From the UHGV virus genome UHGV-0235137: a stretch of DNA of 40,033 nt; one strand, given 5' to 3'. The notes under the pieces were generated by a model, which was given only the letters and a program-made list of their open reading frames with translations, was not told the DNA's origin and did not search any database. Positions 3,713 through 4,447 of this stretch are shown here, one piece after another (position 1 is the first letter of the stretch; each line of letters starts with the position of its first letter). Position numbers and translations under genes: made by a program. This DNA comes from a virus.

Positions 3713-4447
3713 ATGAAAGAGATGACAGAACAAGGTAAGGAGATTTTTAATCTCTTAAAAACCGGTAGAGGGTTTTCTAATCCCCTTATTACTGGTGCAG
3801 CAGTTCTAGGTGGAACCGTGGCTGCCTCTACATCACTTGTAAGCTCTATTAGCTCTGTAACAGACCCTACAATGAAGGATAAGCTCATTGCTGCTGGACT
3901 TACAACAGTTCTGCTTAATAGCTTTACAACGAGTCTGACAAGCACTACATCAACTACTAAGACATTGACAGATTATGGTCAAAAGTCTATTGATGAGTTT
4001 TCCTCACGTATGCAGGTAGCAAAAGGCTACTCCAATGTTATGGGTGCAGCAGGAGAGCAAGTTGGTTGTACACCATTTAGTGGTATTATGGGTGTTGCTA
4101 CAGAGTATGGTCAAAAAGCTATTGACACAATTAACAGTGCACTAGACGGTGTTAATGATGTATTAAGTGACTTACAAGATGCTATTGATAAAGGTCTTGA
4201 TACTGTTTCTGATTTAGCTAACCAAGCTGTTAGCAAGATTAATGAAGGTATCTCAAAGATTACAGCTTATGCAGATGAAGTTGTGCAGATGATTGAAGAA
4301 GAAGCTGCCCTTATTGCAGAGTACCTTAAAACAAATATCAATGGGTTCTTAGCAGGTATCTTACCAGACTGGTTTGACGACGCTTGTAAAACTGGTGTAA
4401 TTGATACTATTGCAACACCAGAAATGAAGAACGCATTACAGAAATAA
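3713..4447 (+). CDS. hypothetical Ser/Thr-rich protein with a hydrophobic N-terminal segment, embedded in the tRNA array
   Basis: ORF track 3650-4447 trimmed to the first ATG after tRNA-Phe; internal repeat YGQK(S/A)ID; no recognisable catalytic motif. Confidence 0.6.
   Translation: MKEMTEQGKEIFNLLKTGRGFSNPLITGAAVLGGTVAASTSLVSSISSVTDPTMKDKLIAAGLTTVLLNSFTTSLTSTTSTTKTLTDYGQKSIDEFSSRMQVAKGYSNVMGAAGEQVGCTPFSGIMGVATEYGQKAIDTINSALDGVNDVLSDLQDAIDKGLDTVSDLANQAVSKINEGISKITAYADEVVQMIEEEAALIAEYLKTNINGFLAGILPDWFDDACKTGVIDTIATPEMKNALQK

What the first reader, a model, noticed from the sequence alone, without database searches (positions are those of the whole stretch)
3713..4447. 245-aa Ser/Thr-rich protein gene inside the tRNA array
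A protein gene flanked on both sides by tRNAs, with a hydrophobic glycine/alanine-rich N-terminal segment, a TSTTSTT tract and a duplicated YGQK(S/A)ID motif, and no recognisable enzyme motif. It may be membrane-targeted or injected.
Basis: seen in the sequence. Interest (0 to 1): 0.45.

Follow-up and report, generated by a model that had tools for sequence, protein, structure and literature searches.

The report
Conserved helical phage protein, function unknown
The gene is real and already catalogued: it is the Felix O1-type copy of an uncharacterised phage protein family (DUF7217), an acidic all-helical protein that is probably a minor virus-particle component acting at the tail tip, not a membrane protein.

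Summary

It is a full-length member of Pfam DUF7217 and PHROG 2114, both of unknown function. AlphaFold gives a confident all-alpha bundle with no specific fold relative. The family keeps an F-x-N-P motif and two cysteines. The N-terminal hydrophobic stretch is not conserved, so a membrane anchor is unlikely.

Evidence for function is indirect:
- The 27%-identical LIMEstone1 homologue (ORF129) was found in virions by mass spectrometry.
- In all 79 loci of one related aquatic-phage lineage, a DUF7217-containing gene directly follows a PAAR spike-tip gene.
- Cryo-EM of Bas63 and Sf14 shows an unidentified trimeric cap on the tail needle; in Bas63 it is described as helix-rich.

Against a virion role, three Ounavirinae virion proteomes do not list it. 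Knockdown in phage SUSP1 had no fitness effect.

Best reading (about 0.4): a low-copy tail-tip or ejected virion protein. The gene is already known and its function is open.

The parts
3713..4447 (+). CDS of 244 aa plus stop. It is the Felixounavirus DUF7217 / PHROG 2114 protein, equivalent to Felix O1 ORF49 (NP_944879), SUSP1 AVU07_agp133 and Sf14 FDI99_gp131.
3703..3708 (+). Shine-Dalgarno-like AAGGTG, 4 nt before the ATG.
   Evidence: Read directly from the sequence.
3621..3696 (+). tRNA-Phe(gaa), ending 16 nt before the start codon.
   Evidence: ARAGORN.
4449..4541 (+). tRNA-Ser(gct), starting 1 nt after the stop codon.
   Evidence: ARAGORN. In Erwinia phage Prophecy this tRNA lies upstream of the homologous gene instead.
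4546..4621 (+). tRNA-Cys(gca), the last tRNA before the packaging and structural module.
   Evidence: ARAGORN. The terminase large subunit ORF is at 5051-6667.
3773..3787 (+). Codons for the family-conserved N-terminal motif F21-S-N23-P24-L25 (the F-x-N-P motif).
   Evidence: F21, N23, P24 and L25 are invariant in alignment A1. The motif is kept in distant members P0073, P0077, P0082, P0098, P0150 and P0157.
4067..4069 (+). Codon of invariant Cys119.
   Evidence: Invariant in A1 and kept in distant members. Of 162 family members of 200-320 aa, 156 have at least two Cys.
4385..4387 (+). Codon of invariant Cys225, within the W220-x-x-D223-x-C225 motif.

Best explanation
The ORF encodes the Felixounavirus member of the DUF7217 family. 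It is a 25.7-kDa, acidic (pI 4.4), all-alpha helical-bundle protein with a conserved N-terminal F-x-N-P motif and two invariant cysteines.

Most likely it is a low-copy component of the virus particle, located at the cell-puncturing end of the contractile tail. It would sit either on the needle tip or in the central channel, be released when the tail contracts, and be dispensable on laboratory hosts.

Shown here or in the cited papers: family membership, fold class, purifying selection, presence of a homologue in LIMEstone1 virions, and coupling to PAAR genes in one distant lineage.

Inferred: that the Felix O1-type protein is itself in the virion, that it sits at the tail tip, and that it acts during envelope penetration.

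Its position inside the tRNA array is a genus-level rearrangement. It is not a functional link to tRNAs.
For: 1. Homology to a virion protein. LIMEstone1 ORF129 (242 aa, 25.03 kDa) aligns end to end with the window protein (27% identity, E 7e-28) and is a full-length DUF7217. It is a 'confirmed structural protein' by ESI-MS/MS, with 18% coverage and 2 peptides (PMC3296691).
- That paper states that all 12 unknown LIMEstone1 structural proteins have structural counterparts in ViI.
- The ViI homologue Vi01_142c is labelled 'phage associated protein' while most of its neighbours are 'uncharacterised'.
- A late promoter is annotated upstream of ORF129.

2. Position next to morphogenesis genes in two phage families.
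- In Ounavirinae the gene lies directly upstream of the small ORF, the terminase and the portal gene.
- In Ackermannviridae it lies between the head genes and the tail-completion gene gp3.

3. Coupling to the spike tip. In all 79 IMG/VR loci of an aquatic-phage subfamily, the DUF7217-containing gene (400-620 aa) lies directly after a PAAR or PAAR-lysozyme gene.
- Members are down to 30% identical to each other.
- The gap between the two genes is -7 to +15 nt.
- These proteins score 44-61 bits on Pfam DUF7217 against the 29-bit cut-off, and they keep the F-x-N-P motif and both cysteines.

4. An unassigned tail-tip density in close relatives.
- Cryo-EM of Felixounavirus Bas63 found one unidentified, C3-symmetric, helix-rich density forming a ring or cap at the tip of the puncture apparatus (PMC12609058).
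- Bas63 baseplate-region genes gp17-21 and gp23-25 are assigned to modelled proteins in the sections I read.
- The same 'dome-shaped cap' is seen in Sf14 (PMC11821841).
- The PDB copy holds the Bas63 baseplate entry 9NDY but no chain related to this protein.

5. Fold. The model is entirely helical, as that density is described.
Against: Not listed in Ounavirinae virion proteomes.
- Felix O1 shotgun list with coverage of at least 25%.
- VpaE1: its ORF47 stays 'hypothetical' although 22 virion proteins were identified.
- Sf14 Table 1.
- The protein would give 11 tryptic peptides of 7-30 aa covering 66% of the sequence. Only low copy number or reporting thresholds could explain its absence.

The Felix O1 'Gp49' claim probably does not refer to this gene. 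The paper assigns a 51-kDa major band to Gp49, argues from 'synteny and mass', and calls it the sheath. ORF49 is 25.7 kDa, whereas gp63 is 48.9 kDa.

The LIMEstone1 proteome also picked up non-structural proteins (rIIB, ligase, PhoH, gp44) at under 5% coverage, so carry-over is possible.

CRISPRi-ART knockdown of the 85%-identical SUSP1 gene gave fitness -0.12, p 0.46, with 3 guides, scored 'Not Fit'.

Felix O1 RT-PCR puts ORF49 in the 5-minute class. That class also contains several structural genes, including the capsid gene.

In three further lineages (phage IME392, and the contigs carrying P0085 and P0091) the gene sits near NAD-ligase or PolX genes, not structural genes.

A rival candidate for the needle cap exists. 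The 123-aa product of 27907-28278 (Sf14 gp55) was detected by MS in Sf14 particles.
Confidence: 0.4

Rival explanations
1. It is a non-structural accessory protein. It would be made together with the tRNA cluster and act inside the infected cell, for example in host takeover, counter-defence or as an assembly helper, and it would not be packaged.
For: - Absent from the Felix O1, VpaE1 and Sf14 virion lists.
- 'Not Fit' in the SUSP1 knockdown screen, as is typical of accessory genes.
- Felix O1 RT-PCR places ORF49 with the tRNA-region ORFs 45, 46 and 48 in the 5-minute class.
- The gene is near ligase or PolX genes in IME392 and in two metagenomic lineages.
- It is packed tightly between tRNAs, so it is probably co-transcribed with them.
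Against: - MS detection of the LIMEstone1 homologue at 18% coverage, and the reported ViI counterpart.
- A late promoter is annotated upstream of the LIMEstone1 gene.
- Strict PAAR adjacency in 79 of 79 aquatic loci.
- The same RT-PCR class also contains the capsid and baseplate genes, so that table does not discriminate.
- The screen has an admitted false-negative rate. It scores the virion genes agp003 and agp004 and the agp005 gene as Not Fit.
Confidence: 0.3
2. It is a virion protein located elsewhere. It could be inside the capsid or in the tail-tube lumen alongside the tape measure protein, and be ejected with the DNA, rather than sitting on the needle tip.
For: - The virion evidence from LIMEstone1.
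- Weak composition-level similarity to tape measure PHROGs (E 5e-6 to 1e-3).
- Longer DUF7217 proteins also hit tape measure PHROGs.
- Bas63 shows unexplained C6 features and a density gap in the tube lumen.
Against: - A profile comparison with the phage's own tape measure protein shows no homology (probability 0.3%).
- There is no T4-type capsid-targeting signal at the N-terminus. This rests on reading the sequence and on my own knowledge.
- The PAAR coupling points to the tip rather than to the head.
Confidence: 0.12
3. It is a membrane protein of the infected cell, such as a holin-like, superinfection-exclusion or injection-pore protein, anchored by the hydrophobic N-terminal segment.
For: - Hydrophobic stretches at residues 25-47 and 58-76, with a Kyte-Doolittle maximum of 1.62.
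- 'Putative membrane protein' annotations in Sf14, mistaenkt, adrianh and GEC_vB records.
- The aquatic subfamily has a strongly hydrophobic hairpin, with maxima of 2.0-2.5.
Against: - The hydrophobic stretch is polar in Ackermannviridae homologues.
- The position of the most hydrophobic window varies across the family.
- AlphaFold packs these helices into a soluble bundle at pLDDT above 90.
- No signal peptide is apparent from the sequence, and the protein is acidic.
- The 'holin' label in neighbouring annotations belongs to a different gene (Felix O1 ORF48), which this window lacks.
Confidence: 0.1
4. It is a GTP-binding protein or a tape-measure paralogue, as the automatic labels of PHROG 289 and the tape-measure PHROGs suggest.
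For: - PHROG 289 'GTP-binding domain' E 4.5e-18.
- Some Klebsiella phage records carry that label on the homologue.
Against: - The match covers only positions 262-499 of the 500-position profile.
- In Ackermannviridae the 'GTP-binding domain' gene is a separate ORF two genes upstream. A 475-aa fused annotation in Salmonella phage 38 probably inflated the PHROG.
- The sequence has no Walker A motif.
- The real tape measure protein is at 16323-18551 and is not homologous.
Confidence: 0.02

Closest known systems
Felix O1 ORF49 (NP_944879; 'red' in AF320576), SUSP1 AVU07_agp133, Sf14 FDI99_gp131 and VpaE1 ORF47: the Ounavirinae orthologues
   Same: Same gene. Identity is 81-100%, the length is 244 aa, and the position is the same, after tRNA-Phe and before tRNA-Ser, tRNA-Cys and the terminase.
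   Different: Nothing of substance. None has an assigned function. The SUSP1 copy scored 'Not Fit' on knockdown.
LIMEstone1 ORF129 and ViI Vi01_142c: the Ackermannviridae DUF7217 proteins, annotated 'unknown structural protein'
   Same: Full-length homologues of 242 aa with 26-29% identity. They share the F-x-N-P motif, both cysteines and the W-x-x-D-x-C motif.
   Different: They were detected in virions by MS, which has not been shown for the Ounavirinae copy. They lack the hydrophobic N-terminal stretch. Their genomic context differs: beside a lipoprotein gene and gp3, with no tRNAs.
Aquatic-phage DUF7217-containing proteins of 400-620 aa, encoded directly after PAAR or PAAR-lysozyme genes
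   Same: They share the DUF7217 domain above Pfam's threshold, with the same motifs.
   Different: They carry an N-terminal leader of about 70 aa, a C-terminal extension of about 250 aa and a strongly hydrophobic hairpin. The window gene has no PAAR neighbour, and the Felixounavirus needle is reported to end in its own apex, not a PAAR.
Tail tape measure proteins
   Same: Long Ala/Gly/Ser/Thr-rich helices. There are weak PHROG hits.
   Different: No profile-level homology to the phage's own tape measure protein. It has one third of that protein's length and lies outside the tail gene block.
PAAR-associated cargo or effector proteins of type VI secretion systems (a functional analogy only, from my own knowledge)
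   Same: A gene directly downstream of PAAR whose product would ride on the spike tip and be delivered into the target envelope.
   Different: No sequence or fold relationship was tested or found. The phage context differs. This analogy applies to the aquatic subfamily, not demonstrably to this gene.
Amphipathic helical-bundle proteins (apolipophorin III, MLKL and plant NLR four-helix bundles, designed helical repeats)
   Different: Sequence identity is 3-14%, only parts of the model are aligned, and the best hits are designed proteins. This is a fold class, not a family relationship.

Membership tests
Pfam DUF7217 (PF23854) / PHROG 2114 | A full-length profile match above the curated threshold. 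| tested here: met
   300.3 bits against a 29-bit cut-off, residues 8-243 on profile positions 2-238. PHROG 2114 E 1.5e-111.
Pfam DUF7217 (PF23854) / PHROG 2114 | The conserved residues of the family: the F-x-N-P motif, Y-G, two cysteines and W-x-x-D-x-C. | tested here: met
   These residues are invariant in a 21-sequence alignment spanning 24-97% identity. They are kept in distant representatives.
Virion structural protein (as for LIMEstone1 ORF129) | Physical presence in purified particles of this phage group. | not testable with these tools
   The literature is negative or ambiguous for Ounavirinae. It is not in the Felix O1 shotgun list, the VpaE1 list or Sf14 Table 1. The Felix O1 'Gp49' 51-kDa band is inconsistent with a 25.7-kDa protein. 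It is positive only for the Ackermannviridae homologue.
Needle-cap protein of Ounavirinae (the unidentified density in Bas63 and Sf14) | Fits the trimeric, helix-rich density at the tip of the puncture apparatus. | not testable with these tools
   Only compatibility is shown. The model is all-alpha, the protein is absent from PDB 9NDY, and the density is described as helix-rich and C3. Maps could not be accessed.
PAAR-coupled DUF7217 subfamily | The gene lies immediately downstream of a PAAR gene. | tested here: not met
   In the window the upstream neighbour is tRNA-Phe. PAAR adjacency is 79 of 79 only in the aquatic subfamily.
Tail tape measure protein | Homology to tape measure proteins, and a position between the tail chaperone genes and the baseplate hub. 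| tested here: not met
   hhalign against the window's 742-aa tape measure protein gives probability 0.3%. The gene lies about 12 kb upstream of the tail block.
Holin or integral membrane protein | At least one conserved transmembrane helix. | tested here: not met
   The Kyte-Doolittle maximum is 1.62. The segment is not conserved in homologues and is buried in the predicted bundle.
GTP-binding protein (the PHROG 289 label) | A P-loop (Walker A) motif and a match to the nucleotide-binding part of the profile. | tested here: not met
   No Walker A motif. The match is only to profile positions 262-499 of 500. The GTP-binding ORF is a separate gene in Ackermannviridae.

The most novel reading that the evidence does not exclude
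DUF7217 is the unidentified cap on the tail needle of Ounavirinae: trimeric in Bas63 and Sf14, and described as helix-rich in Bas63. More generally, it would be a spike-tip-bound protein family that phages deliver first into the host envelope. In aquatic phages the family is genetically welded to PAAR, which would make it a phage counterpart of PAAR-borne cargo.
Probability: 0.2. Interest if true: 0.6.

Novelty: already known. Interest (0 to 1): 0.3.

Why it matters
The gene itself is ordinary. It is a catalogued protein of unknown function, present in hundreds of Felix O1-like and ViI-like phage genomes.

Three points matter:
- The 'protein inside the tRNA array' oddity is explained as a local rearrangement.
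- The membrane-protein annotation found in several GenBank records is probably wrong.
- The family becomes a concrete, testable candidate for a named open problem: the identity of the cap on the tail needle seen in two recent cryo-EM structures of therapeutic-type phages.

If the candidate is confirmed, it would identify the first host-contacting part of these phages' puncturing device. It would also explain why a PAAR gene and a DUF7217 gene travel together in aquatic phages.

Tried and rejected
- **Sequence search of the PDB**, with the protein and with a family profile. Only weak heptad-repeat resemblances appeared, to coronavirus HR1 and influenza HA2 (E 0.002-0.05). I take these as compositional.
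- **Internal duplication** suggested by the repeated YGQK motif. Rejected (hhalign probability 0.2%).
- **Homology to the phage's own tape measure protein.** Rejected.
- **NCBIfam.** Nothing relevant.
- **Literature search for 'DUF7217'.** No paper found.
- **Other papers.** The wV8, phiD3 and AG3 proteome papers analysed too few bands to be informative. The ViI paper is not held.
- **Locus search with the wide family alignment.** It failed for lack of a conserved stretch. Only the aquatic subfamily could be surveyed at scale.
- **PHROG scan of genes around the PAAR-DUF7217 pair.** It gave no further tail markers, so the morphotype of those phages is unknown.
- **'Red protein'.** This old gene name (AF071201 / AF320576) led to no functional information.

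Full report
**1. What is in the sequence**

The window is a Felix O1-like myovirus (genus Felixounavirus).
- Bases 3000-5100 match 292 phage records at 80-99% identity, mostly Escherichia, Salmonella, Shigella and Erwinia phages.
- The rest of the window carries a terminase, a portal gene and a complete head and contractile-tail block.

The finding's ORF is real.
- An ATG at 3713 opens a 244-codon frame ending with a stop at 4445-4447.
- AAGGTG lies 4 nt upstream of the ATG.
- The alternative GTG start at 3650 lies inside tRNA-Phe.
- ARAGORN finds 19 tRNAs in the window. tRNA-Phe ends 16 nt before the ATG and tRNA-Ser(gct) begins 1 nt after the stop, followed by tRNA-Cys.

Two are weaker than they sound.
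- Ser+Thr is 19.7%, against 14.7% in nine structural ORFs of the same window.
- The duplicated YGQK(S/A)ID 7-mer is matched by 7 of 300 shuffles. It does not reflect an internal duplication, and only its first copy is conserved in the family.

The gene is under strong purifying selection, with dN/dS of 0.05-0.09 against EcoM2, Felix O1 and Sf14.

**2. Identity**

- It matches Pfam DUF7217 end to end (300 bits against a 29-bit cut-off) and PHROG 2114, 'unknown function'.
- tblastn finds it in 581 phage records: Ounavirinae at 81-100% identity, Erwinia Ounavirinae at about 45%, and Ackermannviridae at 24-29%.
- A profile search of 1.84 billion representatives finds 199 clusters with E up to 1e-3. 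Most are 220-300 aa and align over their full length.
- The PHROG 289 label 'GTP-binding domain' is an artefact. Only the C-terminal half of that 500-position profile is matched. In Ackermannviridae the GTP-binding ORF is a separate gene two positions upstream. The window protein has no Walker A motif.

**3. Anatomy of the protein**

A 21-sequence alignment spanning both phage families shows these invariant residues:
- an N-terminal G-x-x-F-x-N-P-L motif;
- Y88-G89, R99 and E115;
- two cysteines, C119 and C225;
- W220-x-x-D223-x-C225.

Distant representatives keep the F-x-N-P motif and both cysteines.

AlphaFold2 run with this alignment gives a confident model (mean pLDDT 81.7, pTM 0.78). It is made only of helices, with long helices at residues 25-47, 65-100, 131-160 and 165-207.

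No solved structure resembles it specifically.
- Foldseek against the PDB gives nothing with E below 0.08.
- BFVD returns only family members.

Among 162 family members of 200-320 aa, the median pI is 4.5 and 156 have at least two cysteines. The most hydrophobic window changes position from clade to clade.

The Gly/Ala-rich stretch that suggested a membrane anchor is polar in Ackermannviridae homologues. It is modelled as buried bundle helices at pLDDT above 90. A conserved transmembrane anchor is therefore unlikely.

**4. Why it sits 'inside' the tRNA array**

In Erwinia phage Prophecy (45% identity) the homologue follows the last tRNA, which there is Ser(gct). It precedes the small ORFs and the terminase, and no tRNA lies downstream of it.

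The older arrangement is therefore probably 'tRNA array, then this gene, then the packaging genes'. In Felixounavirus, Mooglevirus and Suspvirus, tRNA-Ser(gct) and tRNA-Cys lie on the other side of the gene.

The array is plainly recombinogenic. This window carries two chimeric tRNAs (see 'Noticed in passing').

**5. Evidence on function**

For a virion role:
- LIMEstone1 ORF129 is a full-length homologue (E 7e-28) and a mass-spectrometry-confirmed virion protein, with 18% coverage and 2 peptides. A late promoter is annotated upstream of it. The authors state that every unknown LIMEstone1 structural protein has a structural counterpart in ViI. The ViI homologue is labelled 'phage associated protein'.

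For a link to the tail tip:
- Proteins of 580-618 aa from aquatic metagenomes carry DUF7217 at their N-terminus and are encoded right after a PAAR or PAAR-lysozyme gene.
- I surveyed 79 IMG/VR loci of this subfamily, whose members are down to 30% identical to each other. All 79 have a PAAR-type ORF ending between 7 nt inside and 15 nt before the DUF7217 gene.
- This is one lineage, so the linkage could be inherited rather than repeatedly selected. Even so, overlapping genes kept at that divergence suggest coupled function.

An open structural slot in close relatives:
- The 2025 cryo-EM study of Felixounavirus Bas63 modelled 22 of at least 23 virion gene products.
- It assigns baseplate-region genes gp17-21 and gp23-25 to modelled proteins in the sections I read.
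- It reports one C3 density 'of unknown identity' forming a ring at the tip of the puncture apparatus, 'rich in helices', and also seen in Sf14.
- The Sf14 study calls it a 'dome-shaped cap' of unclear function.
- The PDB copy contains the Bas63 baseplate entry 9NDY. The window's needle protein matches its 'Puncture apparatus (gp021)' chain at E 6e-143. No chain is related to DUF7217.

Against a virion role:
- The protein is absent from the Felix O1 shotgun list. It is absent from the 22 VpaE1 virion proteins, where its ORF47 remains 'hypothetical'. It is absent from Sf14's table of MS-detected structural proteins.
- It would yield 11 tryptic peptides of suitable size. Only low copy number or reporting thresholds could hide it. 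The 3-copy Felix O1 baseplate protein gp71 itself fell below the 25% reporting threshold.
- The abstract of the Felix O1 paper lists 'Gp49' as structural, but the text assigns it a 51-kDa major band and argues from 'synteny and mass' that it is the sheath. ORF49 is 25.7 kDa, while gp63 is 48.9 kDa and is called a 'conserved structural protein'. I read this as a numbering slip, not as evidence.
- LIMEstone1 MS also detected four clearly non-structural proteins at low coverage.
- CRISPRi-ART knockdown of the SUSP1 orthologue (85% identity) gave fitness -0.12 with p 0.46 from 3 guides, scored 'Not Fit'. The screen misses some virion genes.
- In IME392 and two metagenomic lineages the gene lies near NAD-ligase or PolX genes.
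- A second candidate for the cap exists. The 123-aa product of 27907-28278 has an N-terminal hydrophobic helix followed by a predicted coiled coil. Its Sf14 orthologue gp55 was detected in particles.

**6. Verdict on mechanism**

The best-supported reading (about 0.4) is a low-copy virion protein at the puncturing end of the tail. It would be released on contraction and be dispensable on laboratory hosts.
- Shown: family membership, fold class, selective constraint, presence of a homologue in virions, and PAAR coupling in one lineage.
- Inferred: everything about the Felix O1-type protein's own location and action.

The rivals are:
- a non-packaged accessory protein made with the tRNA cluster (about 0.3);
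- a virion protein located elsewhere, in the head or the tube lumen (about 0.12);
- a membrane protein (about 0.1);
- the automatic GTP-binding or tape-measure labels (about 0.02).

The specific claim that this protein is the Bas63/Sf14 needle cap deserves about 0.2.

**7. Comparison, novelty and score**

The gene is already known as a sequence (Felix O1 ORF49, Pfam DUF7217, PHROG 2114), and its function is uncharacterised. No paper in the held library mentions DUF7217.

It fails the tests for tape measure protein, holin or membrane protein, and GTP-binding protein. It passes the test for DUF7217 membership.

What this analysis adds:
- correction of the membrane-protein and GTP-binding annotations;
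- an explanation of the gene's position among the tRNAs;
- the PAAR linkage in aquatic phages;
- a testable candidate for an unassigned cryo-EM density.

I set interest at 0.3. The gene is ordinary, but it makes a specific open question directly testable.

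Noticed in passing
window 3348-3426: This tRNA-Leu(taa) is a chimera. Its first ~11 bases match Felix O1 tRNA-Leu(caa) and the rest matches Felix O1 tRNA-Leu(taa). 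Relative to Felix O1, the window lacks the segment between those two genes: tRNA-Arg(acg), ORF48 (185 aa, called 'holin' in some records and Semi-Fit in SUSP1) and tRNA-Gln(ttg). This looks like a deletion by recombination between two tRNA-Leu genes.
   Followed up: partly
window 2431-2506 and 811-886: The second tRNA-Lys has the acceptor and D arms of the Felix O1/EcoM2 tRNA-Lys(ctt). Its anticodon arm through T arm match the window's own tRNA-Lys(ttt) at 811-886. It therefore now reads ttt, which looks like gene conversion. This phage would have two tRNA-Lys(UUU) genes and no tRNA-Lys(CUU).
   Followed up: partly
window 3696-3713 and 4447-4449: The ORF is separated from the flanking tRNAs by only 16 nt and 1 nt. 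No convincing promoter or terminator lies between them. The first terminator-like site is at 4784-4801. The mRNA is probably cut out of a tRNA precursor by tRNA-processing enzymes.
   Followed up: no
window 27907-28278 (+): This 123-aa protein (PHROG 4038, unknown function) has an N-terminal hydrophobic helix followed by a predicted coiled coil. Its Sf14 orthologue gp55 ('holin or lysozyme') was detected by MS in particles. It could be an i-spanin-like lysis protein carried over with membrane debris, or a rival candidate for the needle cap. It has no PDB relative.
   Followed up: partly
Felix O1 literature (PMC3185647), relating to window 3713-4447 and 13795-15147: The paper lists 'Gp49' as a 51-kDa major virion band and a putative sheath. 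ORF49 is 25.7 kDa, and the 450-aa sheath-sized protein is gp63 (48.9 kDa). This is probably a numbering error, and it has propagated 'Gp49' into lists of Felix O1 structural proteins.
   Followed up: partly
L016 and L017 9154-9990; L020-L098: Aquatic phage contigs encode PAAR domains fused to a phage lysozyme domain (258-278 aa), or stand-alone PAAR proteins (96-104 aa). In every case a DUF7217-containing gene follows, often overlapping by 8 nt. An Mtd_N receptor-binding protein gene lies a few genes upstream.
   Followed up: partly
window 3713-4447, residues 126-205: The long helical hairpin gives weak hits to class I viral fusion heptad repeats: coronavirus S2 HR1 at E 0.002-0.02 with the family profile, and influenza HA2 at E 0.05 with the single sequence. 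This is probably compositional, but it is compatible with a trimer-forming coiled coil.
   Followed up: no
window 2684-3097 (+) and 1374-1766 (+): Other protein ORFs are interspersed in the tRNA array. The first gives a sub-threshold Pfam HNH match (19.5 bits against a 21.4-bit cut-off), and its Felix O1 counterpart ORF47 is annotated as an HNH endonuclease. It ends 1 nt before tRNA-Thr. Mobile endonucleases may contribute to the rearrangements of the array.
   Followed up: no
window 3713-4447: Thr codon use is skewed to ACA: 17 of 27, against 36% in nine structural ORFs. ACA is the codon read by the phage's own tRNA-Thr(tgt) at 3099-3175. The numbers are small.
   Followed up: no
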